Source: an uncultured Gammaproteobacteria bacterium
GTDB lineage: Bacteria > Patescibacteriota > Patescibacteriia > JAHIZJ01
Length of the DNA stretch: 64,000 nt
Assembly (NCBI GenBank): GCA_964371245.1
Contig: CAYJKP010000001.1
Span: forward strand, 507,042-571,041
Reading direction: 5' to 3'
Made by a program: the position numbers and the translations under genes. Positions 30,053-44,398 of the stretch are shown here, piece after piece. Every line of letters begins with the position of its first letter. Positions within the stretch are counted from its first letter, which is position 1. Below the pieces are notes generated by a model. The model was not told the origin of the DNA and made no database searches. It saw nothing but the letters and a program-made list of their open reading frames with translations.

Positions 30053-30535
30053 CTAAGGGTTGATGATCTCGACGCCCTGGATACTCCCCTCGCCGACCGT
30101 ATACCGGATGGCGACTGGGCCTGGCGGACATCCGGTGACTTGTTCGGCCGCCTGGCGACCGCCGATGATGATCGCATTCGATGGCGCGTTGACCAGGAGT
30201 CTTGAGGCAGCTTCGAAATTGTCTTCGACCCCGGTGAAACACGTCATCGGCACACGATGCCCGCTGGCCAGACGAACCATGTCGTGCTCGGTCCGTCCTT
30301 CGAGATACTCTGGACCTCCGACCACCGGCGTCCAACGACCGACCATGAGTCCGAGCGCCTGAGAGATTTCTCGGAACCGGCGGCCGGTGCCGCAGATAAC
30401 GTGGCTCGGGCTCGATGGCAGTACCGCCTTCAATCGCCTGAGTTCGTAGAGGTCGGGCTCGGTCAATGCCGGATCGCCGCTCGGGCCCACCACAGCGCCG
30501 TGCGTGACGAAGTACACGTTACGGGTCTCGGCCAT
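30053..30535 (-). CDS. Hypothetical GC-rich protein (possibly histidine-phosphatase-like)
   Basis: 160 aa, N-terminus VYFVTHGA, markedly higher GC than the backbone. Functional assignment is weak. Confidence 0.35.
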   Translation of the reverse strand: MAETRNVYFVTHGAVVGPSGDPALTEPDLYELRRLKAVLPSSPSHVICGTGRRFREISQALGLMVGRWTPVVGGPEYLEGRTEHDMVRLASGHRVPMTCFTGVEDNFEAASRLLVNAPSNAIIIGGRQAAEQVTGCPPGPVAIRYTVGEGSIQGVEIINP

Positions 30536-31722: not shown

Positions 31723-33414
31723 CTACTTACGTAGCTTATCTTCCAGTTCACGCTCCTTCACCCGTTGCTTCGCTTCCGAATCAGCCCGCGCCCAATCATA
31801 TTGATTGTGGTCCACAAATTTCATATGCTCGGCTCGCCAAGCTGAACGCTCTTTTATTTTGTCATGAAGTGCCTGACAGACGCGGCGATAGGCAGGGTGG
31901 CCTTGCGGTCCGGTTCGCAATTCGAGCAAATGATAGGCTTCGCGTTCGTTAAACGCCAAGAGCCAGCGCACTTTTGATCCGTGCAGCGTGGCGTATTGCG
32001 CTTGCGTCGGGAAATCCTTTACTAAAACATTAAAAAGCGCGACTGACTTTTCGTGGCACGCTTGGATTTCTTTCTCAAACCCGGCCGTGACAATGTCCGG
32101 CGGCATGGTAAAGCCCAGCAAGGGTGAAAACTGCTGGCGCAATTGCGAAGTCATCCGATGCCGCATCAGATCCTTATAGACGCCGAAATCCGTGACCAAA
32201 TCAAAGGTGTAGGGATAGCCGGCTTCAAGCGCTCGATACGGCCGGTCGCGCCTGGTTTTCCGTTCGCCGACGTATCCTTGAATAACCCGGTTTTTCTGAT
32301 TATCGGTCATTTTTTCCACGATCTTCAGGATTTGCCGCAATGGCAGCCGGCAATACACATACAGCATCATTGCCAGGGTAACGGTATCAAAACGCTGCTG
32401 GAGGGCGTTTTTTACCTTATCAAGGGTGATATAGCCATCGTGAAGCTTGTGAGCAATGAAATTCTCACCATAATCGAGCATTGACACGTCTTCGTCTGTC
32501 ATCGGTTCAACAGGAGCAAAAAGCTCATCAGCCAGGTTGCGCATCGCCGTATCGTTCGCAGCCTGGTAATCGTTGACTCGAGCTCGGCGCACGTACGCTG
32601 GAATAATTTTTGCTAGTTCGCGGCTGCACGCCTCCCCGACGGTTCGCGCCTCAGGCAGCGGGCTGGAAATAAGGCTGCTGATCAGACTCTGGTAAAATCG
32701 GCCGTTACCGAACCAGCCGACATTTGTTTTCGTGGCCAAGGGCAGAATATACCGCAGGGTGTCGCAGGCGCGCGTCCGGATATCCATGTTGTAGGTGGTT
32801 TTGAACGCTTTCTGATCGGCCGGCTCTGTGAGATCATCATACCGCTGCTTGACCTTTGTCCCCTTGATGTCGTATTCAGCTTGTTTTAACGGTTTCAATT
32901 TCTGATAGAACTTTTTCATTGGCTCAATCAGGTCGCAATAGGTTTGAAAAAGAAAATCCATGGTTTCAACATAGGCCGGGCCGTGCTTCGAAGCAATGAT
33001 TTCCGGCGGACGGTAATACCGGTATTGGCCGTTTTCGTCCTGCTGGTCGTAAAACACATAGCGCGTCGACTGTTCAATCGGCGACCCGCCGATCCGGCAC
33101 TCCTCCAATTCCTTAGTCGCTAAGACTGAAATGTTTTCTGTTGACAAATGCGCGCCTTCCAGCTCGCCCACGGAATCGTCGCCGAACGCGATCAAGACGC
33201 GCTGGATCAATTCCTCGGCGTGGACCGGATCGACCACGCCTTCCTTGATGAATTCCTTGAGCAAGACTTCTCGAAACCCGCCCTTGGCTCGGCTGTAGCG
33301 CGCGTAGGCCGCACCCACCATGCCTTGCATCCCGGTCACGCAAAAAACGTCGCCGGTAGGGTCGGTTACGTATTTCTTGAGCAATTCAATTTCGTCTGGT
33401 TTGAAAAACGCCAT
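31723..33414 (-). CDS. thyX: ThyX-like FAD-dependent thymidylate synthase, long (~560 aa) form
   Basis: RHR-containing block LMRHRMTSQLRQQFS resembles the ThyX RHRxxS signature. The gene directly precedes dut. It is far longer than a canonical ThyX, so the call is tentative. Confidence 0.45.
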   Translation of the reverse strand: MAFFKPDEIELLKKYVTDPTGDVFCVTGMQGMVGAAYARYSRAKGGFREVLLKEFIKEGVVDPVHAEELIQRVLIAFGDDSVGELEGAHLSTENISVLATKELEECRIGGSPIEQSTRYVFYDQQDENGQYRYYRPPEIIASKHGPAYVETMDFLFQTYCDLIEPMKKFYQKLKPLKQAEYDIKGTKVKQRYDDLTEPADQKAFKTTYNMDIRTRACDTLRYILPLATKTNVGWFGNGRFYQSLISSLISSPLPEARTVGEACSRELAKIIPAYVRRARVNDYQAANDTAMRNLADELFAPVEPMTDEDVSMLDYGENFIAHKLHDGYITLDKVKNALQQRFDTVTLAMMLYVYCRLPLRQILKIVEKMTDNQKNRVIQGYVGERKTRRDRPYRALEAGYPYTFDLVTDFGVYKDLMRHRMTSQLRQQFSPLLGFTMPPDIVTAGFEKEIQACHEKSVALFNVLVKDFPTQAQYATLHGSKVRWLLAFNEREAYHLLELRTGPQGHPAYRRVCQALHDKIKERSAWRAEHMKFVDHNQYDWARADSEAKQRVKERELEDKLRK

Positions 33415-33421
33415 CCTGGTG

Positions 33422-33847
33422 TTACCGCCCGGTGCTGCCAAAACGGCCTTGTCCCCGCGCGGTTTCGCTTAATGTTTCGGTTTCAATGATGTCGACTCGC
33501 TCAACTGGCTGGATCAACAATTGGGCGATTTTATCGCCGGTTTTTATCTCGTGAACCTGCTGGCTGGTGTTTAACAGCACAATCACCAATTCGCCGCGAT
33601 AACCCGAATCAAGCACACCGGCCAAGCAATGAATGCCGTGTTTATGCGCCATTCCGCCTTTGTCCCAGATTAACCCGACGTATTTTTCAGAAAATTCAAA
33701 GGCTAAACCAGTAAAAAACGAACGGCGCTCGCCGGGCTGCAAGGAATAATCCTCACAGCTGCAAATGTCCAGTCCGGCATCACCGGGCTGGGCGTATTTC
33801 GGTATAATCGCCGCTGGTTTTAATTTCTTTACTTTCACCTTGGTCAT
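33422..33847 (-). CDS. dut: dUTP diphosphatase
   Basis: dUTPase motifs (DAGLDI, GLIWDKGGMA, GVLDSGYRGEL). Start at MTKVKVKK. Confidence 0.8.
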   Translation of the reverse strand: MTKVKVKKLKPAAIIPKYAQPGDAGLDICSCEDYSLQPGERRSFFTGLAFEFSEKYVGLIWDKGGMAHKHGIHCLAGVLDSGYRGELVIVLLNTSQQVHEIKTGDKIAQLLIQPVERVDIIETETLSETARGQGRFGSTGR

Positions 33848-33940: not shown

Positions 33941-35080
33941 CTAGGAACGCGGCTGAAATCGGGGTAGCAATTGCTCCATGATCTTCTTGATGCCACCGTA
34001 CTCAAGCTCGCCATAGGGCAGCATGGCAGGGCCGAAGAACCCCTGCTGGCGAAGACCGAGGGCCTTCTCCTGGACCTTGCGCCTGACCTCGTCCCAGGCC
34101 GGGTTGCCGAAGACGTCTTCGGCGCTGCGGCTGAACGTTCCGCCCGGCGCGAGGGAGAACGACATCGCCGACACAATCGGTAGACAGTATGGTCCCGTCA
34201 CGGCCGTGTTCTTGGGCACGGGCATGAGCGGCATGACGTGGCTGCCGCGCGCGCCGCCGGCCACGTAATGGCCGATCACCCAGGGCATGACCACCTCTTC
34301 CAGCGCCGGGAAGATCCCCTGGATGCGCACGATCGCCACCGGATCGTCCTTGCCGGTGTACCGGCCGGCGATGTTGTGCAGGCGCTGGGCCGAAACGGCA
34401 ACGGCCTGCTGCTTCGGAAACGCGCGGGAGTAGATCGCATCGATCGCGAACCGCTCATTGTCACGCAGCAGCGCGGCGATCGCATACAGATCTTCCGGCG
34501 CCTGGAGCGTGATGAGTGAATCGTGATCAGCCTGATCCATGTCGATGATCTGGAACGTGTAGCCCTGGCTCTGCCGGTCGGAGAGGATGAGTCCGCTCGA
34601 GTACATCGGATCGGCGAAGGCCAAATAGAACGGAAGGTTGTACGCGCCGGGGCCGCACTTGTCGGCCGCGAACACGACGAACGACTCGGCCGGACGACAG
34701 GTGCCAGCCGCCGTCGGGTCATGTTCGAATGTCAGCTCGGCCACGGCCGGTCCGGCACCGCGCAGATTGCCGGAGGGCGCGTCGACCAGAAGGTCCTGGC
34801 CAGCTGCATAGAGACCGCGCTTCTGGGCGTTACGCGTTGCCCCCAGAAACGCGTGGTGAACCAGTTCGAGGTGCACCACCTGGCTCAGCGGCCCGTGCAG
34901 ATGGGCCAGCACGCAGTTGATGTCATCCCCGGTGAACATAGTCAGTCCATCGAGAATTGTCTTGCGGCTGACCGCCTCCCGCACTGCGCTCTGGACGGTG
35001 GCCATCATTTCCGATGATGGCCGCGTATGTCCACCGATTGATCCAACGTCCGCCTTGAGACAAGAAAGAGTGACCTTCAT
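33941..35080 (-). CDS. Fructose-1,6-bisphosphate aldolase/phosphatase (archaeal-type class V FBPase)
   Basis: N-terminus MKVTLSCLKADVGSIGGHT matches the FBP aldolase/phosphatase family start. About 380 aa, very GC-rich, strong AGGAGG SD. Confidence 0.7.
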   Translation of the reverse strand: MKVTLSCLKADVGSIGGHTRPSSEMMATVQSAVREAVSRKTILDGLTMFTGDDINCVLAHLHGPLSQVVHLELVHHAFLGATRNAQKRGLYAAGQDLLVDAPSGNLRGAGPAVAELTFEHDPTAAGTCRPAESFVVFAADKCGPGAYNLPFYLAFADPMYSSGLILSDRQSQGYTFQIIDMDQADHDSLITLQAPEDLYAIAALLRDNERFAIDAIYSRAFPKQQAVAVSAQRLHNIAGRYTGKDDPVAIVRIQGIFPALEEVVMPWVIGHYVAGGARGSHVMPLMPVPKNTAVTGPYCLPIVSAMSFSLAPGGTFSRSAEDVFGNPAWDEVRRKVQEKALGLRQQGFFGPAMLPYGELEYGGIKKIMEQLLPRFQPRS

Positions 35081-35111
35081 GAGAGTCACCTCCTCTGTCG
35101 TGGGCCGAGAA

Positions 35112-35143
35112 GCAAAATAACACACAACCCTTCTCTGAGGGTT
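35112..35143 (-). terminator. Intrinsic terminator ending the long ribosomal/dikinase-like operon
   Basis: Stem AACCCT/AGGGTT followed on the minus strand by a T-rich tract (GTGTGTTATTTTG). Confidence 0.4.
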
Positions 35144-35207: not shown

Positions 35208-35723
35208 TTATTCGGCTGCCAAGTTCTTGTAGAGCGAGTGGACTTCTTCGCTAAAACAAGCGATTATTACTCTCTTTATGCTCGTATGTTTTTGAATGAA
35301 TTGACGAATCTCTCGCAGGGCAATCGGCGCCGCTATATCGACTGGAAATCGGTATGCTCCCGTGCTGATTGACGGAAAGGCGATCGTCTTCACTCCATTT
35401 TCCACGGCGAGTGTAAGTGAATTACGGTAGCACGAGGCTAATTGGTCTGCTTCGCCGCGCGTCCCGCCAGTCCAGACCGGCCCGACCGTATGGATGATGA
35501 ATTTCGCCGGCAATTTATAGCCTTTGGTAATTTTCGCTTCGCCAGTCGGACAGCCGCCGATTTTTTCGCATTCCTTCAATAGCTCTGGTCCGGCTGCCCG
35601 GTGGATCGCTCCATCCACTCCCCCGCCTCCCAACAAACTTGAGTTGGCTGCATTGACGATCGCATCAACATGAAGCGTGGTGATGTCGGCTTTAATAATT
35701 TCAATCCGTCTATTTGCCATCAT
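35208..35723 (-). CDS. Macro domain protein (O-acetyl-ADP-ribose deacetylase/MacroD-like)
   Basis: Motifs [23 protein letters not shown] and GEAKIT...HTVGP. 171 aa. Confidence 0.8.
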
Positions 35724-37228
35724 TATCGTATTTTCCTGACTAAGCCGTTCGCCGCGTCAATTTCAACCAGATCGCCGTCTTTTAAAACCCGCATGGCCAT
35801 GCGCGTTCCGACCACACAGGGTATTTTCAGCTCCCGGGCAATGATCGCCGCATGCGACGTCAGCCCGCCCTCATCGGTCACAATCGCTCCGGCTTTGTGC
35901 ATGTAGGGAACGAAATCAGGCCGCGTCATGTAGGTCAGCAGTATCTCCCCCGGCCGCAGATTCTTGCCATGCTTTGACGGCGTTTCGATTTTGCGAATAA
36001 TGCCACGCAGGACGCCTGGCGATGCACCGATGCCATGCAAAACCGTCGTGTTGGCCGGCACATTCATACCCGAAATCCGTTTCCAGATTCGCTCATACTG
36101 CTGTCCGCTGACCATGCCCTCGGCACCGTTCGTAAACGCATAATAGAGACAACCGTTTTTTCGGCGTTTCAATTCCGCGCTGGCCACACGTCTTCCTCGG
36201 TAGACGGCAAAGAGTTCATCCGGCGTGAGGTGCCAGATTTCTGTCCTGGTATAACCGAGCTGCTTGGCAAATACACTGATAAATTTCTGGCACCAATAGT
36301 TGGCGATCAGGTTAGCCTGTTTCCGCTCATCTTGCCAATGTCCGGCAAATCCGATCGAGCGCAGAATTTTTATTTCGGTCGTCGTTAGCCGCGTGTGGTT
36401 TTTTGCTTTCCGTTGTAGCGTGATCGTATGTTTTTGGTAGCGTTGTAATTCGCGCGCCCGCTGACGCAAAGCAGTACGTGGACGGGCAATGTAGGACCGC
36501 AGTTTTTGAAAAAAATGATCATTGGTTAATGGCACAGTGTTGCGATAATCAAAATAGATCCAAAAAAACTTTCGCTGAATATGCTCAAGCGCTCGATACT
36601 GTTTCGGCCATTGTTTTCGAAATTCATCCATTTTCCTCGGCAGCCGCTTCCCTTCCAATCCCAGCGCCAGTTCGAGCAGAGGCAGCTCGGCGCGTTGAAG
36701 AAATGATGGTTTCGGCGCGCGGGTAAAGATAACGATGTCGGAATCCAGTTGCTTGTACTCGGCGTAGCGCCGTTTTAGTTGCCGTACGAATTTATCCCCG
36801 CCCAGCGAATAATATTCAGTAATCAGCGGGAGGCTATATTCTCGAAGGTAAATATGATAAAAGCGCCGAAATTCTTTCGACGGCTGTTTTGTAATATCAA
36901 GGCGCTCCAACCGGCTGATTTCGCGGTAAAATTCCCGTTTGCGCTCCAACCAGCACCGGTAGACGCGCTGGACGTATTCGGGCTGTCGGAAGCACCAATA
37001 CCCTTTATCTTCAAATTCCTGCTCGTCGTAGATCCAATACGATTTCAGACCGTTCTGCGTGGAAACAACGGCGATTTTCTCAGCGCCCAATTTCGGAAAT
37101 TGCCGGCGGAGCACGGAGGTGATCGCCTGTCCGGGAATGATCGCCGTGAACGGCACGAAGACCCCGCCCTGGATCACCCAGTGCGTGGTACCGGAAAATA
37201 ATTTCTTTTCGGCCGCGGCAATATTCAT
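35723..37228 (-). CDS. Swivel-domain protein A: unknown basic/aromatic N-terminal domain plus C-terminal PEP-utilizing-enzyme phosphohistidine domain
   Basis: C-terminus GIGASPG...[25 protein letters not shown]...[10 protein letters not shown] matches the PpsA/PPDK/rifampin-phosphotransferase His domain. Its start overlaps the gene B stop (ATGA). Confidence 0.6.
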
Positions 37229-38250
37229 ACTTTTGTAATGATACCACGATTGGCGTCCACTTTGATCCGATCGCCGGTTTGTAAAACCTGCGTCGCTACT
37301 TTTGCCCCGATAATGCACGGGATTCGGAGCTCGCGCGACACGATCGCCGCATGGCAGGTTATTCCTCCTTCATCGGTAACGATCGCCGATGATTTTTTCA
37401 TGGCGCCAAGATAGCGTGGATCCGTCATCGGCGTTATAAGTATTTCTCCATTCTTTATCGAGCGCAGATCGCGCGGATGCAATATTATCCGCGCTTGTCC
37501 AAATACTTTACCACCATAGGCGCATTGTCCTGTTATCATGCTGGCATCGATAGTTCGTTCAATTTCTTGATATAATTCCTTAATTTTCTTTCTGGCATTG
37601 ATACCGGTTAACACCTTTTTCTTATTTCGACCATATATGACGCATGATTGTTTCCGACGTTTCTGAATATTTGTCGGCAATGTACCCGTAGCCAAATACC
37701 GATAATATTCTACGTCAATTAGGTATCGCAAGGTATCTTTTCCGAGCCCCCGTTCTTTCTCAAAACGCGCGAGCAACGTCGCGTGATGGCTGATCCCAAT
37801 TTTATGGACCAGCTCGTATTTTCTCCTTGTCCGCATCAGCGTTTGTAGCAGGGCCGCGCTGCATCGTTCTCTCAAGCGCGGCACGTAAGCGGCCACAAAA
37901 ATAATGTCAGTAAATTTGCGGATAAATTCTTCTGACTCCTTTAAGGCAGCGAGCGTGTTACCATGTTTTCCTCTGACGAAATTCTGAAAAGACATGCGCT
38001 CGCGTTCCCGTGCCGTAATAAGTTTGTTCAGATTATTTAAAGAATGATTTTTCAGCCAGCCAAGAGCATATCCGCGATAATCTGTTTCTGCCAGCCAGTG
38101 ATTGAACACGCCATTCTCAACGGTTACGTACATCGTATGCGGGACATAATGAAAATACCGGCACAACCGCTGAGACAATAATTCATCCATGACAAAGGTG
38201 GTGGCTAGGACTGTATATGACCGACGATGTTTTTCATAACGCACGCTCAT
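37225..38250 (-). CDS. Swivel-domain protein B (paralog; unknown N-terminus plus PEP-utilizer His domain)
   Basis: C-terminus TDEGGITCHAAIVSRELRIPCIIGA...TGDRIKVDA. Confidence 0.6.
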   Translation of the reverse strand: MSVRYEKHRRSYTVLATTFVMDELLSQRLCRYFHYVPHTMYVTVENGVFNHWLAETDYRGYALGWLKNHSLNNLNKLITARERERMSFQNFVRGKHGNTLAALKESEEFIRKFTDIIFVAAYVPRLRERCSAALLQTLMRTRRKYELVHKIGISHHATLLARFEKERGLGKDTLRYLIDVEYYRYLATGTLPTNIQKRRKQSCVIYGRNKKKVLTGINARKKIKELYQEIERTIDASMITGQCAYGGKVFGQARIILHPRDLRSIKNGEILITPMTDPRYLGAMKKSSAIVTDEGGITCHAAIVSRELRIPCIIGAKVATQVLQTGDRIKVDANRGIITKV

Positions 38251-38263
38251 TATATTCCGACAA

Positions 38264-39712
38264 TTATCGTTTTATGATATTGCCCTTATTCGCATCCACC
38301 TCCACTCTGTCACCGTCTTTTAAAACGTGCGTTGCCGTTTGTGTCCCGATAACGCACGGAATGTTCAATTCGCGCGAGATGATCGCCGCATGACAGGTCA
38401 AGCCACCCTCATCGGTCACAATAGCCGCGGCGCGTTTCAATAACGGAACGTATTCCGGCCGGGTCATATGGGCGACGATGATATCGCCGGTTTTAAACTT
38501 TTTAAAATCCGCCTTCGTTTCAACGATTTTTACGCGGCCAATGACTGACCCTGCGTTTGCGATCGTGCCGTGGATAGCCTTTCCCTTATCGCTCTGGGTC
38601 ATGACATGGTACAGCTGCTTTGCTTCGCGTCCGTACAGCCAGCCGCATTTCTGGTCTGCGGTACAGAGGAAGGCACTGAAAGCCAGCCTCTTTTTCAGCG
38701 TCTGTTTTTGCGCCGATGTCAGACGCCAGCCCGTCAGATCGATTGGCGTTACCATGCCGGCTAGCTGCTGAGTAATATGGTTTTCTTTGGCTAACCGTTT
38801 GAGTATTTGGAACAGATGCGCGTTGGTAATATTTGTCGCGTATTTTTTGCGTTCATCGCGCCAGTCGCTCATTTGCCGAAAAAGATAGAAGACGTTGTCT
38901 AATTTCTTTGGTACGTGTTTCGCTTTCAAGATTTTCTGTATCTGCCGACGATTTTTCCTAATTGTACGGTTAATCTTTACCAGTTCAGTCTTCAAGGATT
39001 TCAATTTTTTTACGTCTTTTTGTATTATATGGTAGAAATATCGATCATCTAAAATATGCACATATGCCCAATTATTTTTGTACCAGCTGAATTTTTGACG
39101 ATGTCGTTTTACCCCCTGGGTAATGTCGCGATCAGTTGCCAACCGTTTCACGAGTTGCAGTCGTGATTCCAGTTCCTCCTGGACGAAACTCAATTTTGTC
39201 GGCGCAATCAGTGTTTGAATTTCTTTTGCGGATAAATTGCATTTTGCCAGCGTAATTTCTTGTTGAAGCGCCTTTTCCCCGTCGGGATCAGACCATTCGA
39301 TTAACACGGCGGTGATCCAGTGCGCCAAAACGTTTTTCATATGCCACGCTAAAAAACTCCGCAGCTCTGCGTCAGACCATGATGATATCGGCTTTTGGAA
39401 GCGTCTTTGATATTCGATTAAAACCCGCTGCATCTGTTCGCGCCATAATGCGATCCGGCGATCAATCGTTGCGCTATCCCGTTTTTGCCGTTGTATTACC
39501 TGCCAAAGCAAACGATATTCCTTCTCCCGATCAAAATACGCAATATTACGATCGCCGCATTGAAAATAAATATTTCGGTCATACCCCAATGTTTCATTCA
39601 TCGAGAGATACGGGGTAAAACCGTAGAATAGCCAAATCGCACCGCCTTGTTTATACCAGCGCCGTTTCGTAATTGTCCTGATGTTCGGTTTGATCTTGCT
39701 AATAATCTTCAT
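38264..39712 (-). CDS. Swivel-domain protein C (paralog; unknown N-terminus plus PEP-utilizer His domain)
   Basis: C-terminus TDEGGLTCHAAIISRELNIPCVIGT...KDGDRVEVDA. 482 aa. Confidence 0.6.
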   Translation of the reverse strand: MKIISKIKPNIRTITKRRWYKQGGAIWLFYGFTPYLSMNETLGYDRNIYFQCGDRNIAYFDREKEYRLLWQVIQRQKRDSATIDRRIALWREQMQRVLIEYQRRFQKPISSWSDAELRSFLAWHMKNVLAHWITAVLIEWSDPDGEKALQQEITLAKCNLSAKEIQTLIAPTKLSFVQEELESRLQLVKRLATDRDITQGVKRHRQKFSWYKNNWAYVHILDDRYFYHIIQKDVKKLKSLKTELVKINRTIRKNRRQIQKILKAKHVPKKLDNVFYLFRQMSDWRDERKKYATNITNAHLFQILKRLAKENHITQQLAGMVTPIDLTGWRLTSAQKQTLKKRLAFSAFLCTADQKCGWLYGREAKQLYHVMTQSDKGKAIHGTIANAGSVIGRVKIVETKADFKKFKTGDIIVAHMTRPEYVPLLKRAAAIVTDEGGLTCHAAIISRELNIPCVIGTQTATHVLKDGDRVEVDANKGNIIKR

Positions 39713-40794
39713 ATCTTCCTCACAATCCCCTTAGTAGCATCAACTACCACCCGATCGCCGTCTTTGAAAACCTTTGTGGCGAACTTTGTCCCGACAATGC
39801 CTGGGATGCCAAACTCACGGGTAATAACCGCCGCGTGGCTTAACATACCGCCTCCCTCATCTGTCACCACTGCCTTAACTCGTTTGAAATGCTTGACGTC
39901 ATCCGGCCGAGTCATATTTGTGACGTAGACTGGCCGAGTTGGCCAGCTTTGTCTGTTTAGGTTACACACCACAACGCCGACAATCCTGCCCGGTGAAACT
40001 GGCGTGCCCTGGATTAGTCGGCTGGCCGGTTTCTGAACCTGAAGCTGCCTTCGAACCCGACTGACAACGGCGCTATCGGTTTGAACAACTTCTCGGCTAG
40101 ATGCCCAAAGATAAACATAGCCTTTTCTACGGCGTCGAAGCTCATCCTTTGATACGGTCAGTCGTTTTTGCCGAAGTGTTTGCAATAACTCAGAACGCGT
40201 CATCATTCGACTGAGTGAGATATTGAGTCCGTATTCCGTAAATGCTCTCTGAAGTGCCCGCGTTATTAAGTGCTCGCAACGCGGATAGCTTTTCGCGCTA
40301 GTGTCGCGCTCCTTGCCTAATCTGGACAAATCAATCCGGGGAAAAGGACTTTGTCCAGACTTCGCAAAATCAAGGTATCTCCAAAATAAATTATATGTCC
40401 CGATTCCGCCTAACAGCTTTGGGTAATCCGTGAGAACAAACTGAATGAATTGAACTGGGTCAGTTTTTACGAGGCCTTCATATCTTTTAAGACCCACGGC
40501 AAAATCGTGGCACTGCTGAAACGCCTGACGACGCGTATTTCTAAGCCAGCCGGGTTGATGGGCTAATTTAGACGAAACCTCACGAACAATGTAGTCACTA
40601 TTAACTAATGAATGGAAGCCTCGATTGTTTCCGACGCCACCAAGATGCAAATATGACATCCCGGATATTTGACGAGCATTCGTACAAAATCCCTGAGCAA
40701 TGCAGCTCAGCGATACCAAAGGAAGCGCTCGATATACACCACCCTCCGATCGCAAGCCCATCTTTTCCAATCGTTGAGATAAGTCCAACATCAT
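39709..40794 (-). CDS. Swivel-domain protein D (paralog; unknown N-terminus plus PEP-utilizer His domain)
   Basis: C-terminus TDEGGGMLSHAAVITREFGIPGIVGTKFATKVFKDGDRVVVDATKGIVRKI. ATGA overlaps with both C and E. Confidence 0.55.
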   Translation of the reverse strand: MMLDLSQRLEKMGLRSEGGVYRALPLVSLSCIAQGFCTNARQISGMSYLHLGGVGNNRGFHSLVNSDYIVREVSSKLAHQPGWLRNTRRQAFQQCHDFAVGLKRYEGLVKTDPVQFIQFVLTDYPKLLGGIGTYNLFWRYLDFAKSGQSPFPRIDLSRLGKERDTSAKSYPRCEHLITRALQRAFTEYGLNISLSRMMTRSELLQTLRQKRLTVSKDELRRRRKGYVYLWASSREVVQTDSAVVSRVRRQLQVQKPASRLIQGTPVSPGRIVGVVVCNLNRQSWPTRPVYVTNMTRPDDVKHFKRVKAVVTDEGGGMLSHAAVITREFGIPGIVGTKFATKVFKDGDRVVVDATKGIVRKI

Positions 40795-41876
40795 ATTTTC
40801 CTCACAATCCCCTTGGTCGCATCCACTTCCACCCGATCGCCGTCTTTGAAAACCTTTGTGGCGAACTTTGTCCCGACAATGCACGGTATTTTCAACTCTC
40901 GAGCCACAATCGCCGCATGGCAGGTCAAACCGCCTTCGTCAGTGATGATTGTTTTGGCATTGCGCAGATACTGGGAAAACCGAACCGTCGTCATCGGTGT
41001 TACGATCACGTATCGCCCGCGGATCTTTTTCAGATCTCGCAATGTTCGGACCACCCGGGCAATGCCAATGACGGGCTTTCGCGCGGCGTACGCGGTTTGG
41101 CCATGGAGAGCATCAACATCGTTGCTTTTCCTGCCCGGTACTTCACGCTCGACTTGTTTCTGTATTTGTTTCGCGCGCTGGCCAATAAACAATTGTATTT
41201 TCCCACCGATCGCTTGCAATGCATACAGACGGTACCGTTTTTCAAGTTCTGACGCTGAAACCACTGATCTGTTTCGGCGCAACGACTCAACCAATTCCTG
41301 GCAATTCATAAACATGACTCGCTTTTTTTCTAGCCTCAGCGTAACACCGAGTGACGCCGCAAACGCCGGGATGACAGTATCGTCAATCCAGGTTAATGTC
41401 TTGCCACAATAATCTTTGGTGTAGCCGCAATCAGCGATTGTTGCGCGCGTAAAGGCATGGCGATGCGTATCGACGAGCGTGGGAAAGCGATAAACCGAAT
41501 ACATCTCTCGATAATATTTGTAGAATTCTATCAGTAATTCGCTCAGAACGGTGGTAGCTAGATTTTTTTCAAGCTGCATATAAATACGACGGATCTGACG
41601 GCTGCGTTTCGCAAAAATCCTTCGTATTTTAGAATTCAACTGGTTAATAGTTCTTCCTTGGCACGAGTGGAGGAACCGCAGGAACGAACGCGAATCGCGT
41701 TCCGAAAAATAACTTTTTTCAATATCCTTTTCAGAAATAAAAAGCTGGTCGCGATAGCCCCAGCCGAGCGCTTTCTTCATATCGCGGACATACCCCTCGA
41801 GACCGAGGCTCAGAATGAAATACGGAAAGCCCTCCCGGGTAAAGACGGGGGTCCATTGTATGCTTCTATTTCCCAT
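40791..41876 (-). CDS. Swivel-domain protein E (paralog; unknown N-terminus plus PEP-utilizer His domain)
   Basis: C-terminus [50 protein letters not shown]. Its last ~95 nt are about 90% identical to the gene D 3' end. Confidence 0.6.
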   Translation of the reverse strand: MGNRSIQWTPVFTREGFPYFILSLGLEGYVRDMKKALGWGYRDQLFISEKDIEKSYFSERDSRSFLRFLHSCQGRTINQLNSKIRRIFAKRSRQIRRIYMQLEKNLATTVLSELLIEFYKYYREMYSVYRFPTLVDTHRHAFTRATIADCGYTKDYCGKTLTWIDDTVIPAFAASLGVTLRLEKKRVMFMNCQELVESLRRNRSVVSASELEKRYRLYALQAIGGKIQLFIGQRAKQIQKQVEREVPGRKSNDVDALHGQTAYAARKPVIGIARVVRTLRDLKKIRGRYVIVTPMTTVRFSQYLRNAKTIITDEGGLTCHAAIVARELKIPCIVGTKFATKVFKDGDRVEVDATKGIVRKI

Positions 41877-43290
41877 GCGCCCCGATCCAATTAAATTCCT
41901 CGCCCATCATGTCCATCGGACGTAAGCCAAGGTTTTTCCGTTCAGCCGCAGGAACATAGCTTTCGTAAATTTCGAGGAGGGCGGGCTGAAGCAAATCTTT
42001 ATATTTCATCGCCAGAAGATGCTCGAGATAATCACGCGTCAGGCCGCCGTCATAGATCACGTCAAAGGCGTATTGATTTATAATTGCGTTCTGATCGTCA
42101 CGGGTATAGGTCGCAATCGTGCCGCCGATCAAACCCTTCGTATCAACAGATTGCACGCGCGCACGCTCATCGGGTTCGTCAGCTAAAACGGATAGCCACA
42201 CTTCCTTCATCTTGGTTAAATAATTACATGAGCCGTGACCAACCAGCGGCCGCACGCCCAGCCAAAACGTCAGATAGCCAAAAATGACGAACAAATTCGG
42301 GATGATTGCGCCGTCTGTAAGGCTTTTTATAACTTCGTCTTGATTACGTAAATCAAGCTCAAACTGACCATCGGTCGAACGCAAGAGCGATCCGTGCAGA
42401 AACATGGGCTTGGCCTCGTTTTTCGCATCGCGATACCAAAAGAAGTGGGTGCCCTTACCCTTCGCTTCGTTCCAACAACCGATCAGATCTTCAAAAGCGG
42501 TTAAAATACGAGCGCGAAAATCAGTATTGAAAAGACTGCGACTCAGGCTGTTATCCTCGGTCAATACCGGAGGCAGTAGCGTCCGCATAACATCTTCCTG
42601 GGTAACATACAGTAAGTCGGGTATCGTCTCCCGGATTGACTCGTGAAATAGTTTTTTCCACAAGAATGCGTTGATAATGCCTATTTGGTCGTTGTAGCTT
42701 TTGGCCTGGGAAAAATCCTGTCCGCCTATCTCCTGTTCTATGGCTTTCAAAAAATCCTGTTCCTCGCCGGTAAAATTGTTCCAGCTGTCGGTCTTTCGCA
42801 AATTCTCGGTAAAATTAAAGTCGCGCCGGCCGATAAAACAACTGGCTTGATGCATTTCCTTATTCGAAAAAAGAGGGATGCGTTTGCCGTGAAGCTGAAA
42901 CCCCTTGCGATTGAAAAAATTATTCGGTGGAACGACTGAACTTGTTAGAACGACGATCGGCTGTCGGTCGCCCGTGAGCAGGCGGTGGGCATTAGCGACA
43001 AGATTCGTCGCGAGAAGTATCGGGTGGTTGAGGATGGAATGATGGTCGACAATATTGAGGCTCAGCGGTGGAGTAACGTGTTCCTGGCCCTGAAAAACGC
43101 GCGCGGAGTACTCAGCGATCGTTCGAGCCAAAAACTCTTGGCGTTGCGTATGGACTGGGTCGGCCGTATACGTGTCGAGCTGATGTGAAAACTCAGTAAT
43201 TGTATCGTTGCAGTCGAAATATTCCGCCACCACCGGGGCGTATTTCCGTATCCCGTTTTTCAGTATGTCGACGTTTTTTGAGTCAGGCAT
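41866..43290 (-). CDS. Hypothetical 474-aa protein co-transcribed with the swivel-domain array
   Basis: Long ORF with no recognizable family motif (contains GHGSCNY). Its stop overlaps the gene E start by 11 nt. Confidence 0.45.
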   Translation of the reverse strand: MPDSKNVDILKNGIRKYAPVVAEYFDCNDTITEFSHQLDTYTADPVHTQRQEFLARTIAEYSARVFQGQEHVTPPLSLNIVDHHSILNHPILLATNLVANAHRLLTGDRQPIVVLTSSVVPPNNFFNRKGFQLHGKRIPLFSNKEMHQASCFIGRRDFNFTENLRKTDSWNNFTGEEQDFLKAIEQEIGGQDFSQAKSYNDQIGIINAFLWKKLFHESIRETIPDLLYVTQEDVMRTLLPPVLTEDNSLSRSLFNTDFRARILTAFEDLIGCWNEAKGKGTHFFWYRDAKNEAKPMFLHGSLLRSTDGQFELDLRNQDEVIKSLTDGAIIPNLFVIFGYLTFWLGVRPLVGHGSCNYLTKMKEVWLSVLADEPDERARVQSVDTKGLIGGTIATYTRDDQNAIINQYAFDVIYDGGLTRDYLEHLLAMKYKDLLQPALLEIYESYVPAAERKNLGLRPMDMMGEEFNWIGAHGK

Positions 43291-43295
43291 AGTGA

Positions 43296-43862
43296 CTACT
43301 TCACAAGGTCGCCTACGCCGATGTCCTTCAAGACATCGTCGATCTTTGCGTGTAATTCATCGATCGTGCCGTCATTGACGATATTATAATCCGCCAGCTT
43401 CCGAGCGGCCAAAAGCTGGGCCTGAGATCCCTGGCCGGTAATCTGAAATTCTTCCTGCTTGCAGAATTCCTCATAGGTCATTTTATCTTCGGGCCGGCCT
43501 CGATCTTTGATCCGTTGATAGCGAGTTTCAATCGGCGCATCGACGCTCACTAAAACAAAATCACCGCCTTCTCGTAACGCGGCAATTTCGTCAGGATGAC
43601 GCAAGCTGTCGACAATAACCAATTTCTCGCCTTTTGCCTCAATCTGTTCCAATAAGCGTTTCGGAATAATGCCAGCGCCGAATTGTGAGCGCAGGCTATT
43701 GCCAAGGGTAATAAGATTCTCAATCGTTTTCGGCCGGCCGAGCTTTTCCAGCTCACCGCGCAAATAGTCGGAACACGAATGATAGATGAAACCTTTCGTT
43801 TTCAAATATTCGCCGATTTCACCCTTGCCCGCGCCGAAATAGCCTGTGAGTCCGATAATCAT
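43296..43862 (-). CDS. P-loop nucleotide kinase (dephospho-CoA kinase/dNMP kinase-like)
   Basis: Walker A GLTGYFGAGKGE, about 188 aa. Adjacent to the dCMP deaminase gene. Confidence 0.5.
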   Translation of the reverse strand: MIIGLTGYFGAGKGEIGEYLKTKGFIYHSCSDYLRGELEKLGRPKTIENLITLGNSLRSQFGAGIIPKRLLEQIEAKGEKLVIVDSLRHPDEIAALREGGDFVLVSVDAPIETRYQRIKDRGRPEDKMTYEEFCKQEEFQITGQGSQAQLLAARKLADYNIVNDGTIDELHAKIDDVLKDIGVGDLVK

Positions 43863-43864
43863 GG

Positions 43865-44398
43865 CTAGGTATTCTTAATAACAACGTCGCCTTCAGCCGC
43901 TTTTTTCTCCTCGATTTCATCGGCAAACATTTTCCTCACTTCGGAATTCCAATCCTTGTTGTCAGCATAAAGGTCAACCTGCAAACCCGCTTCGCGGAGA
44001 TAGTCCGGCGCTTTTGAATTCCGGTATATTTTGGCATAGACAACGCGTTTCACCCCAGCGGCCACCACATATTTGCAACAATGGATGCACGGAATATATT
44101 TGGTATAGAGCGTTGATCCGTCCGTGCTCGCGCCCGGAATGACCGCCGCTTGAAGAATCGCATTATGCTCGCCGTGGATCGTTCGGACGCAGTGACCCTC
44201 TTCCATCATATGACCGACGTCGTCGCAGTGCGGCAAACCCGGCGGCGATCCATTGTACCCGGTGGAAATAATGCGGTTATCCTTGACCAGGACGGCGCCG
44301 GCGCGTAGCCGATCGCAGGTTGAACGCGACGCCACCACTCGGGCAATGGCCATGAAATAGTCGTCCCAGCCAGGACGATAATTTTCTTTGTTGGTCAT
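43865..44398 (-). CDS. dCMP deaminase (ComEB-like cytidine/deoxycytidylate deaminase)
   Basis: Zinc motifs HGEHNAI (HAE-type) and PCIHCCKYV (PCxxC). Confidence 0.8.
   Translation of the reverse strand: MTNKENYRPGWDDYFMAIARVVASRSTCDRLRAGAVLVKDNRIISTGYNGSPPGLPHCDDVGHMMEEGHCVRTIHGEHNAILQAAVIPGASTDGSTLYTKYIPCIHCCKYVVAAGVKRVVYAKIYRNSKAPDYLREAGLQVDLYADNKDWNSEVRKMFADEIEEKKAAEGDVVIKNT

What the first reader, a model, noticed from the sequence alone, without database searches (positions are those of the whole stretch)
35208..44398. Operon-embedded tandem array of five divergent phosphohistidine swivel-domain proteins
Five consecutive minus-strand genes (A-E, 341-531 aa) each end in a complete PEP-utilizing-enzyme mobile domain. 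The conserved block is G-x-G-A/S-x-G...TDEGG-x-T-S/C-HAAI-x-REL-x-IP-x-x-G...KDGD-x-V-x-VDA, and the catalytic His is intact in all five. Their N-terminal 240-430 aa are basic, aromatic-rich and barely alignable to each other. None carries the ATP-grasp or PEP/pyruvate TIM-barrel domains of PpsA/PPDK. The nearest described arrangement is rifampin phosphotransferase, whose His domain is also C-terminal. A/B, C/D and D/E overlap by ATGA, which suggests translational coupling. The array is directly preceded by a 474-aa unknown protein, a P-loop nucleotide kinase and a dCMP deaminase, and is followed by a macro-domain protein. All of these sit on one strand with gaps of 0-13 nt, downstream of secE-nusG-rplK-rplA, with an intrinsic terminator only after the macro gene. 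This pattern would fit a substrate-diversified family of phosphoryl-relay or dikinase-like enzymes, possibly phosphorylating nucleotide-related or small-molecule substrates, coupled to nucleotide salvage and ADP-ribose processing. I am not aware of this architecture having been described.
Basis: partly seen in the sequence, partly recalled or inferred. Interest (0 to 1): 0.85.

Follow-up and report, generated by a model that had tools for sequence, protein, structure and literature searches.

The report
Tandem swivel-histidine kinase modules, charger missing
Five neighbouring genes in an ultra-small (Patescibacteria) bacterium each encode a substrate-binding domain plus a phosphate-carrying histidine domain of a rifampin-phosphotransferase-like kinase, and the same modules recur in tiny bacteria and archaea as arrays or giant fusions tied to a single ATP-binding domain.

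Summary
Five consecutive minus-strand genes (361, 361, 482, 341 and 501 aa) each end in a complete PF00391 swivel domain with the catalytic His, and none has an ATP-grasp or PEP/pyruvate domain. dN/dS against an 87%-identical relative is 0.11-0.23, so they are working genes, not ppsA fragments.

This single-unit architecture is already described: HpeH, CreH and PpsA of two-component small-molecule dikinases. What I found undescribed is the multiplicity. Across Patescibacteria and DPANN archaea the units form arrays of up to 10 genes. They also fuse into ORFs of up to 3,761 aa that carry one PpsA-type ATP-grasp and eight units. Three of three sampled stand-alone ATP-grasp genes sit beside such units.

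The window itself has no ATP-grasp, so the charging step is inferred. The proposed link to nucleotide salvage and macro-domain processing holds only in close relatives. Verdict: new variant of a known kind, substrates unknown.

The parts
40791..41876 (-). Unit A, short form (361 aa). It has a truncated helical N-domain and a swivel domain (residues 254-361 = 40794-41117). The catalytic His320 codon is 40917-40919.
   Evidence: PF00391 E 3.7e-22. The N-part matches only positions 22-143 and 305-385 of the long-form N-domain HMM. No W-x-D-x-R-K motif. dN/dS 0.23 against L007.
39709..40794 (-). Unit B, short form (361 aa from the ATG at 40794, with an ATGA overlap with A). The swivel domain is 39712-40017 and the His320 codon is 39835-39837. 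The His motif is atypical, DEGGGMLSH, with no Thr at -2.
   Evidence: PF00391 E 4.6e-20. Junction sequence. Motif. dN/dS 0.15. Its 3' 151 nt are 83% identical to those of A, against 62-64% to the other units.
38264..39712 (-). Unit C, long form (482 aa, with an ATGA overlap with B). It has a full RPH-like N-domain with WRDERK at residues 284-289 (38846-38863). The swivel domain is 38267-38584 and the His441 codon is 38390-38392.
   Evidence: PF00391 E 3.2e-27. N-domain HMM positions 1-385 matched at E 1e-79. Motif. dN/dS 0.11.
37225..38250 (-). Unit D, short form (341 aa, 13-nt gap after C). The swivel domain is 37228-37542 and the His300 codon is 37351-37353.
   Evidence: PF00391 E 1.9e-25. 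Only positions 305-385 of the N-domain HMM are matched. dN/dS 0.16.
35723..37228 (-). Unit E, long form (501 aa from the ATG at 37228, with an ATGA overlap with D). It has an RPH-like helical substrate-binding domain with WQDERK at residues 298-303 (36320-36337). The swivel domain is 35726-36049 and the His459 codon is 35852-35854.

Best explanation
Each of the five genes encodes one acceptor module of a split, RPH/HpeH-type ATP-dependent dikinase. A module is a helical substrate-binding domain followed by a PpsA-type phosphohistidine swivel domain.

Proposed mechanism:
1. A separate PpsA-type ATP-grasp protein binds ATP and loads phosphate on the swivel His. This protein is not in the window, and the step is inferred from relatives.
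2. The swivel domain swings back onto its own N-terminal domain.
3. In the long forms C and E, the D-x-R-K motif positions His~P, and the phosphate passes to a bound small-molecule hydroxyl. This motif is the counterpart of RPH E667/K670. The step is inferred from homology.
4. The products would be phospho-substrate, AMP and Pi.

The very divergent N-domains imply a different substrate for each module. The short forms A, B and D lack the motif, so they either use another acceptor site or act as carrier or regulatory modules.

What is shown: domain identities, fold, conserved motif, purifying selection, and the recurrent genetic linkage or fusion of such modules with one ATP-grasp in other genomes. 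What is inferred: the charging step in this genome, catalysis and the substrates.
For: - Swivel domains with an intact His are present in all five genes.
- The family profile aligns to RPH-Lm residues 608-866, placing W-x-D300-x-R302-K303 on Y665-R666-E667-Y-P-K670. R666 and E667 are essential for RPH's second phosphotransfer (PMC4844700).
- D300, R302 and K303 are 73-86% conserved in 61 long units.
- Rosetta-stone fusions exist: ATP-grasp + 8 units in a 3,761-aa ORF (L018), ATP-grasp + 4 (L026), + 3 (L036), + 2 (L020, L023) and + 1 (L024, L054). Stand-alone ATP-grasp genes abut arrays in L008, L009, L013 and L027.
- The reciprocal test held: 3 of 3 sampled stand-alone ATP-grasp genes are next to 2-5 PF00391-only genes.
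- Array-associated ATP-grasps are a tight clade, with median 59% identity across CPR and DPANN against 40% to conventional PpsA N-termini.
- There is a precedent for a split enzyme. In HpeHI/CreHI/PpsAB, HpeH alone transfers phosphate between substrates and the His mutant is dead (PMC12167813).
- All five genes and both of their domains are under purifying selection.
Against: - No ATP-grasp gene occurs in the 64-kb window or in the about 21-kb loci read from the three nearest relatives (L001, L003, L007), so the phosphate donor for this particular array is unknown.
- Only 5 of 14 loci with three or more units show an ATP-grasp within the sequence held.
- Three of the five units (A, B, D) lack the RPH-like catalytic motif.
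- The swivel domains keep the PpsA-type Thr at -2, whereas RPH and HpeH have Met, so this is a separate lineage and the mechanistic transfer is by analogy.
- No substrate is indicated by any conserved neighbour.
- Some family members carry an N-terminal HTH domain, which fits a regulator better than a metabolic kinase.
Confidence: 0.6

Rival explanations
1. The units are phosphorelay, sensor or regulatory modules rather than metabolic kinases. The swivel His~P would be a signal, passed between modules or to partner proteins, and the N-domain would be a ligand sensor. Short forms would be pure phospho-carriers.
For: - Some homologues fuse a Cro/C1-type or MerR-type HTH domain to the unit: P0051 and P0087, and L011:596-2269 and L016:2673-4421 with HTH_26 at E about 1e-15.
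- Short forms lack the acceptor-site motif.
- His_Phos_1 proteins lie near all three sampled ATP-grasp/unit loci.
- A PPDK-derived swivel protein acting as a regulatory histidine kinase has a precedent in VadK (PMC13400623).
- Eight swivels behind one ATP-grasp in a single polypeptide could work as a relay.
Against: - The long forms retain the RPH second-site catalytic motif.
- Most units have no DNA-binding or output domain.
- The extreme divergence of the N-domains fits substrate diversification.
- No conserved partner protein other than the ATP-grasp was found.
Confidence: 0.2
2. The array phosphorylates nucleotide-related substrates and works together with the dCMP deaminase, P-loop kinase, 474-aa protein and macro-domain protein in one salvage and ADP-ribose pathway.
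For: - All are on one strand with overlaps or gaps of 13 nt or less.
- The block deaminase-kinase-F-array, followed by dUTPase and ThyX, is conserved in L007 and L001. L001 also has TK and thymidylate kinase nearby.
Against: - The association is confined to one narrow clade (68-87% identity).
- Macro and FBPase are absent in L001, which has a Trp-repressor-like gene there instead.
- The clustering of non-family ORFs across the 35 family loci analysed found no recurrent neighbour.
- F homologues elsewhere sit in unrelated contexts.
- Array size changes (3 against 5 units) while the flanks stay put, which looks like an insertion into a conserved housekeeping neighbourhood.
Confidence: 0.1
3. The five genes are decaying fragments or duplicated pseudogenes of a PEP synthase or PPDK gene.
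For: The best NCBIfam hits are PEP synthase models, and all are far below their cut-offs.
Against: - Each gene has a complete swivel domain of its own.
- The N-domains have an RPH-like fold, not an ATP-grasp or TIM barrel.
- Lengths are identical in L007, except D at 341 against 342 aa, and dN/dS is 0.11-0.23 in both domains.
- The same two size classes recur in 89 units from many lineages.
Confidence: 0.02
4. The array is an anti-phage or other conflict system, with rapidly diversifying paralogues next to a deaminase and kinase pair that resembles the dCTP-deaminase defence protein.
For: - N-domains diverge very fast and copy number varies.
- The kinase and the deaminase hit the two halves of the PADLOC dCTPase model.
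Against: - None of A-E hits PADLOC.
- No family member was found in 2.9 million viral contigs.
- The deaminase is 99% conserved with dN/dS 0.013 and is most similar to ComEB-type dCMP deaminase, though at 149.6 bits it is below that model's 219.45-bit cut-off. That fits a housekeeping gene.
- Short-term evolution of the units is purifying.
Confidence: 0.05

Closest known systems
HpeH / CreH / PpsA, the swivel-bearing component of two-component small-molecule dikinases (HpeHI, CreHI, phenylphosphate synthase PpsAB; PMC12167813)
   Same: The protein carries an RPH-type substrate-binding domain and a C-terminal swivel His domain but no ATP-grasp, which is supplied by a separate protein. [quoted passage not shown]
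   Different: - There is one H component per system there, but 5 here and up to 10 or more, or 8 fused, in relatives.
- The units here are shorter (341-501 aa, against about 71 kDa for HpeH).
- The swivel keeps the PpsA-type Thr at -2, whereas HpeH and RPH have Met.
- The partner ATP-grasp gene is adjacent there and absent from this window.
- The organisms here are CPR and DPANN, not aromatic-degrading Actinobacteria or Proteobacteria.
- The substrates here are unknown.
Rifampin phosphotransferase (RPH-Lm; PDB 5FBS, 5FBT, 5HV1) and the PigC/RedH/HapC ligases
   Same: The fold of the helical substrate-binding domain plus swivel domain is shared, in the same domain order with the swivel at the C-terminus. 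A catalytic acid/Lys motif sits at the equivalent helix: E667/K670 in RPH against D300/K303 in E.
   Different: RPH is one chain with an N-terminal ATP-grasp. Identity is about 18%. The Arg is at +2 of the acid here, not at -1. NCBIfam scores are 44-71 bits against cut-offs of 999 or more. The single-chain form does exist among relatives (L024, L054).
PEP synthase (PpsA) and pyruvate phosphate dikinase
   Same: The swivel domains are most similar to those of PEP synthases (8a8e, E 3e-25). The array-associated ATP-grasps of relatives match a PpsA N-terminal HMM at E about 1e-106 to 1e-121.
   Different: There is no PEP/pyruvate TIM-barrel domain and no ATP-grasp in these genes. The RPH-like helical domain takes the place of the pyruvate site. 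Annotating these genes as PEP synthase would be wrong.
VadK (Rv1127c), a PPDK-derived regulatory histidine kinase (PMC13400623)
   Same: It is a swivel-domain protein that has lost the PEP/pyruvate domain and been put to a new use.
   Different: By its NCBIfam model (PRK05878), VadK keeps its own ATP-grasp and has no RPH-like substrate domain. It is a single-copy gene.

Membership tests
PEP-utilising enzyme mobile (swivel phosphohistidine) domain, Pfam PF00391 | Domain match above the Pfam gathering score | tested here: met
   All five score 71-94 bits against a cut-off of 23.1, and cover essentially the whole 72-position profile, from position 1-6 to 72.
PEP-utilising enzyme mobile (swivel phosphohistidine) domain, Pfam PF00391 | Catalytic His in the G-G-x-T/x-S/C-H-A-A motif | tested here: met
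   The His is invariant in A-E. B has a one-residue insertion and Leu instead of Thr at -2.
PEP synthase / PPDK | N-terminal ATP-grasp (PF01326) in the same protein | tested here: not met
   No PF01326 hit. My PpsA-N and array-type ATP-grasp HMMs find nothing in the window (best E 3.3).
PEP synthase / PPDK | C-terminal PEP/pyruvate-binding TIM barrel (PF02896) and the NCBIfam equivalog cut-off | tested here: not met
   No PF02896 hit. PRK06464 and TIGR01418 score 76-130 bits against cut-offs of 598 and 740, and the matches are confined to the swivel region.
Rifampin phosphotransferase / PigC family (single-chain) | Helical substrate-binding domain followed by a C-terminal swivel domain (fold) | tested here: met
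   [not shown]
Rifampin phosphotransferase / PigC family (single-chain) | ATP-grasp fused at the N-terminus, and the NCBIfam equivalog cut-off | tested here: not met
   No ATP-grasp. NF041857 scores 52-71 bits against a cut-off of 999.
Rifampin phosphotransferase / PigC family (single-chain) | Second-site catalytic residues (R666/E667/K670 in RPH-Lm) | tested here: inconclusive
   C (WRDERK) and E (WQDERK) align D and K with E667 and K670. A, B and D, and the 28 short units as a class, have no conserved counterpart.
Two-component small-molecule dikinases (HpeHI/CreHI/PpsAB) | H component made of an RPH-like substrate domain and a swivel domain, without ATP-grasp | tested here: met
   for E, and for C. 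The short forms A, B and D meet this only in part.
Two-component small-molecule dikinases (HpeHI/CreHI/PpsAB) | Separate ATP-grasp component encoded beside the H component | tested here: not met
   Absent from the window and from L001, L003 and L007. Present or fused in L008, L009, L013, L018, L020, L023, L024, L026, L027, L036, L054 and L091-L093.
Two-component small-molecule dikinases (HpeHI/CreHI/PpsAB) | Met rather than the regulatory Thr two residues before the His (stated for HpeH, CreH, PpsA and RPH in PMC12167813) | tested here: not met
   A, C, D and E have Thr (GGxT[CS]H), the PpsA/PPDK/EI type. B has Leu.
Two-component small-molecule dikinases (HpeHI/CreHI/PpsAB) | ATP-dependent phosphorylation of a (phenolic) small molecule through His~P, yielding AMP and Pi | not testable with these tools
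   This needs biochemistry.
PTS Enzyme I | HPr-binding subdomain and C-terminal PEP-binding domain | tested here: not met
   Only the swivel segment matches (about 50-75 residues), at 33-44 bits against a cut-off of 342.

The most novel reading that the evidence does not exclude
CPR bacteria and DPANN archaea share a modular phosphotransfer platform that has not been described. One highly conserved PpsA-type ATP-grasp 'charger' would load phosphate onto many fast-diverging acceptor modules. These modules are encoded as arrays of 3 to 10 or more genes, or as polyproteins of up to 8 modules and 3,761 aa. The platform could give these minimal-genome symbionts a broad capacity to trap or inactivate host-derived small molecules by phosphorylation. 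Alternatively it could form a multi-step His phosphorelay. The window's array would be one instance whose charger is encoded elsewhere in the genome.
Probability: 0.35. Interest if true: 0.8.

Novelty: new variant of a known kind. Interest (0 to 1): 0.66.

Why it matters
- Annotation. These genes, and the stand-alone PPDK_N genes that accompany them elsewhere, are labelled 'PEP-utilizing enzyme', 'PEP/pyruvate-binding domain-containing protein' or 'pyruvate, water dikinase'. Such labels could wrongly credit CPR and DPANN genomes with PEP synthase or gluconeogenesis in metabolic reconstructions.
- Biology. Genomes of about 1 Mb spend 7-20 kb on these paralogues, which suggests an important function that is still unknown. 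That function may relate to scavenging or detoxifying compounds from hosts, as proposed for HpeHI.
- Enzymology. One ATP-grasp serving up to eight swivel modules in a single chain would extend the known repertoire of swivel-domain machines. It would also offer a natural library of substrate-binding domains.
- Evolution. The charger is 54-70% identical between bacterial and archaeal ultra-small lineages, which points to exchange between the two domains.

Tried and rejected
2. Pseudogene fragments: rejected by dN/dS and conserved lengths.
3. Known defence system or phage origin: no PADLOC hit for A-E and no family member in viral contigs.
4. Conserved neighbours as a clue to substrate: none found beyond the ATP-grasp.
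5. Basic pI as a clue to polyanionic substrates: rejected, because it follows the proteome of each lineage.
This is uninformative, because nearly all 8,000 candidates scored (7,992) reached E <= 1e-30.
7. The 160-aa ORF at 30053-30535 as a SixA-like phosphohistidine phosphatase: it has a homologue inside the L009 array, but no Pfam or PDB support. Left open.
8. The terminator and promoter scan gave nothing above shuffled expectation for terminators.
9. The afdb50 fold library was unavailable.

Full report
**1. The observation**

The ORF list shows five consecutive minus-strand genes:

| Unit | Coordinates | Length |
|---|---|---|
| A | 40791-41876 | 361 aa |
| B | 39709-40794 | 361 aa from the ATG |
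| C | 38264-39712 | 482 aa |
| D | 37225-38250 | 341 aa |
| E | 35723-37228 | 501 aa from the ATG |

Pfam finds exactly one domain in each: PF00391 at the C-terminus, with E 4.6e-20 to 3.2e-27. The catalytic His is present in all five. None has PF01326 (ATP-grasp) or PF02896 (PEP/pyruvate TIM barrel). NCBIfam PEP synthase, RPH, PigC and Enzyme I models match only at 5-20% of their cut-off scores.

Upstream lie dCMP deaminase, an AAA_18 kinase and a 474-aa protein with no family hit. Downstream lies a Macro protein.

The claim of a single terminator after macro is not backed. Terminator-like sites are no more frequent than in shuffled sequence, and the hairpin after macro is weak.

**2. They are real genes**

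A contig with 87% protein identity (L007) has the same nine-gene layout, with identical lengths for every gene except D (341 against 342 aa). Nei-Gojobori dN/dS between the two is 0.11-0.23 for A-E. It is 0.11-0.30 for the N-terminal parts and 0.06-0.27 for the swivel parts. This rules out fragments of a decayed ppsA.

**3. What the N-terminal domains are**

Sequence search against PDB sees only the swivel domain. An AlphaFold model of E, built on 62 homologues, is confident (pLDDT 95.2, pTM 0.91).

A profile of the family aligns to RPH-Lm residues 608-866. This places the family's most conserved N-domain motif, W-x-D300-x-R302-K303 in E numbering, on RPH Y665-R666-E667-Y-P-K670. In RPH, R666 and E667 are essential for the second phosphotransfer, from His825 to rifampin, and K670 belongs to the same hydrogen-bond network (PMC4844700).

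Across 61 long units from many genomes, D, R and K are 73%, 86% and 77% conserved. C (WRDERK) and E (WQDERK) have the motif. A, B and D do not.

**4. Two size classes**

I cut 114 units out of the related loci. Their lengths are bimodal, at 320-380 aa (28 units) and 440-530 aa (61 units). Short units match only the first and last parts of the long N-domain HMM. In their N-part they keep just two conserved residues, the equivalents of E338 and R356 next to the swivel domain.

The window therefore holds two long units (C and E) and three short units (A, B and D).

**5. The family and its arrays**

E has more than 2,600 homologues. The full-length ones are annotated only as 'PEP-utilizing enzyme' or 'phosphohistidine swiveling domain-containing protein'. 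They come from Patescibacteria and from DPANN archaea (Woesearchaeota, Nanoarchaeota, Micrarchaeota). The N-domain of E alone finds 378 clusters at 50% identity among 1.84 billion representatives.

Tandem arrays are the rule:
- 3 units in the 68%-identical relative L001.
- 9 or more in L003.
- 10 in a Nealsonbacteria contig (L009).
- About 8 in Falkowbacteria (L011).
- 7 in Woesearchaeota (L012).
- 6 in Buchananbacteria (L013).

Longer homologues have two PF00391 domains. Some ORFs are polyproteins: L018 (Woesearchaeota, 3,761 aa, 8 swivel domains), L064 (at least 2,937 aa, 8), L026 (1,994 aa, 4) and L036 (1,399 aa, 3). None of the three checked (L018, L064, L026) contains N or X.

N-domains of different units share only 20-28% identity, while swivel domains stay at about 50-60%.

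**6. The missing domain turns up in relatives**

I built an HMM from the N-terminal 330 residues of 37 conventional PpsA proteins. It finds an ATP-grasp at E about 1e-106 to 1e-121 in two settings:
- At the N-terminus of the polyproteins L018, L020, L023, L026 and L036, and of the single-unit proteins L024 and L054. The latter two have the RPH domain order.
- As stand-alone genes of 312-357 aa directly beside units in L008, L009, L013 and L027.

Stand-alone PPDK_N proteins of about 315 aa are a very large Patescibacteria family. I looked up three of them on long contigs, and all three sit next to 2-5 PF00391-only genes.

These array-associated ATP-grasps are 54-70% identical to one another across bacteria and archaea. 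The median is 59% among themselves, against 40% to conventional PpsA N-termini.

Apart from this domain, no neighbour recurs across lineages.

**7. What is absent from the window**

No ATP-grasp is detectable in any frame of the 64-kb window (best E 3.3). None is found in the loci of the nearest relatives. The phosphate donor for this array is therefore unknown. I could not search the rest of the genome.

**8. The flanking genes**

The deaminase-kinase-F block and the dUTPase-ThyX genes accompany the array only in the window, L007 and L001. Macro and the FBPase_3 gene are absent from L001.

The array thus looks like a variable insertion (3 against 5 units) into a conserved pyrimidine-deoxynucleotide neighbourhood next to the rplK-rplA cluster. 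That gives no general evidence for a shared pathway.

**9. Comparison with what is known**

The combination of an RPH-like substrate domain and a C-terminal swivel domain, with the ATP-grasp on a separate protein, is exactly the HpeH/HpeI, CreH/CreI and PpsA/PpsB arrangement. It was described in 2025 as a subfamily of two-component small-molecule dikinases (PMC12167813). The unit architecture is therefore known.

The differences are:
- Multiplicity, in arrays and polyproteins.
- The existence of a short form without the acceptor-site motif.
- Swivel domains of PpsA type, with Thr at -2 where HpeH and RPH have Met.
- ATP-grasps of PpsA type.
- Restriction to CPR and DPANN.

Full-text searches found no paper that connects PF00391 or PEP-utilizing proteins with CPR or DPANN arrays. 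The library is incomplete, so this is absence of evidence only.

**10. Mechanism and confidence**

The best-supported model is a split dikinase in which one conserved ATP-grasp charges the His of many acceptor modules. The long modules would then pass the phosphate to different small molecules at the D-x-R-K site.

- Shown: domain content, fold, motif, selection, and genetic linkage or fusion in relatives.
- Inferred: charging in this genome, catalysis, and the substrates.

I give this model 0.6. A regulatory or relay role is the main rival, at 0.2. It draws on the HTH-fused members, the motif-less short forms, and nearby His_Phos_1 genes. The nucleotide-salvage reading gets 0.1, the defence reading 0.05 and the pseudogene reading 0.02.

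**11. Verdict**

This is a new variant of a known kind. Interest is moderate to high because the multi-module form is widespread, unstudied and probably mis-annotated, and because its substrates are completely open.

Noticed in passing
[not shown]
   Followed up: partly
window 43296-44398 (-): The adjacent dCMP deaminase and AAA_18 kinase match the two halves of the anti-phage dCTP deaminase models (NCBIfam NF041025, PADLOC dCTPase). Here they are separate genes in the reverse order. The deaminase is 99% identical to its L007 orthologue with dN/dS 0.013, which looks like a housekeeping gene.
   Followed up: partly
window 33941-35125 (-): The archaeal-type fructose-1,6-bisphosphate aldolase/phosphatase gene (FBPase_3, E 4e-129) has GC 63% and GC3 78%, against 50% for the window. 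Together with macro it is absent at this position in relative L001. It is probably a recent horizontal acquisition.
   Followed up: partly
window 30053-30535 (-); L009:17196-17672: A 160-aa ORF with an N-terminal 'YFVTHG' motif, reminiscent of the RHG motif of histidine phosphatases such as SixA, has a 29%-identical homologue inside the Nealsonbacteria swivel array. No Pfam or PDB sequence match supports the phosphatase idea.
   Followed up: partly
L091:3490-4443, L092:11037-11615, L093:18747-19331: All three sampled ATP-grasp/swivel loci contain a His_Phos_1 (PF00300) protein within 10 kb, scoring 27-29.5 bits against a gathering score of 21.7. This may be a phosphatase partner or a coincidence.
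   Followed up: partly
L018:2177-13462; L064:1-8814; L026:6932-12916: Giant uninterrupted ORFs of 3,761 aa, at least 2,937 aa and 1,994 aa carry 8, 8 and 4 swivel domains. L018 and L026 begin with a single ATP-grasp. In L018 three short units come before five long ones.
   Followed up: partly
L011:596-2269; L016:2673-4421; proteins P0051, P0087: Some family members carry an N-terminal Cro/C1-type (HTH_26, E about 1e-15) or MerR-type HTH domain in front of the N-domain and swivel unit. In L011 this is the first gene of the array, so it may be a regulator.
   Followed up: partly
window 38264-39712 (-) vs L007:7531-8979: The N-domain of unit C is 98% identical to its L007 counterpart (dS 0.105), whereas the other units are 80-86% identical (dS 0.32-0.78). 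The 491-aa gene at the same position in L001 is only 22% identical. This suggests recent exchange or replacement of single units within the array.
   Followed up: partly
window 39709-39859 and 40791-40941: The last 151 nt of B and A are 83% identical, against 62-64% to the other three units. The encoded C-termini are almost the same (IVGTKFATKVFKDGDRV.VDATKGIVRKI). This probably reflects gene conversion between neighbours.
   Followed up: no
window 31723-33441 (-): The ThyX gene encodes 572 aa with two Thy1 (PF02511) stretches, about twice the usual length. The same is seen in L001 and L007 (567-569 aa).
   Followed up: no
L056:9224-11572: An Acidobacteriota MAG encodes a 782-aa protein with a permuted order: N-domain, swivel domain (418-523) and then a partial PPDK_N (596-709).
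   Followed up: no
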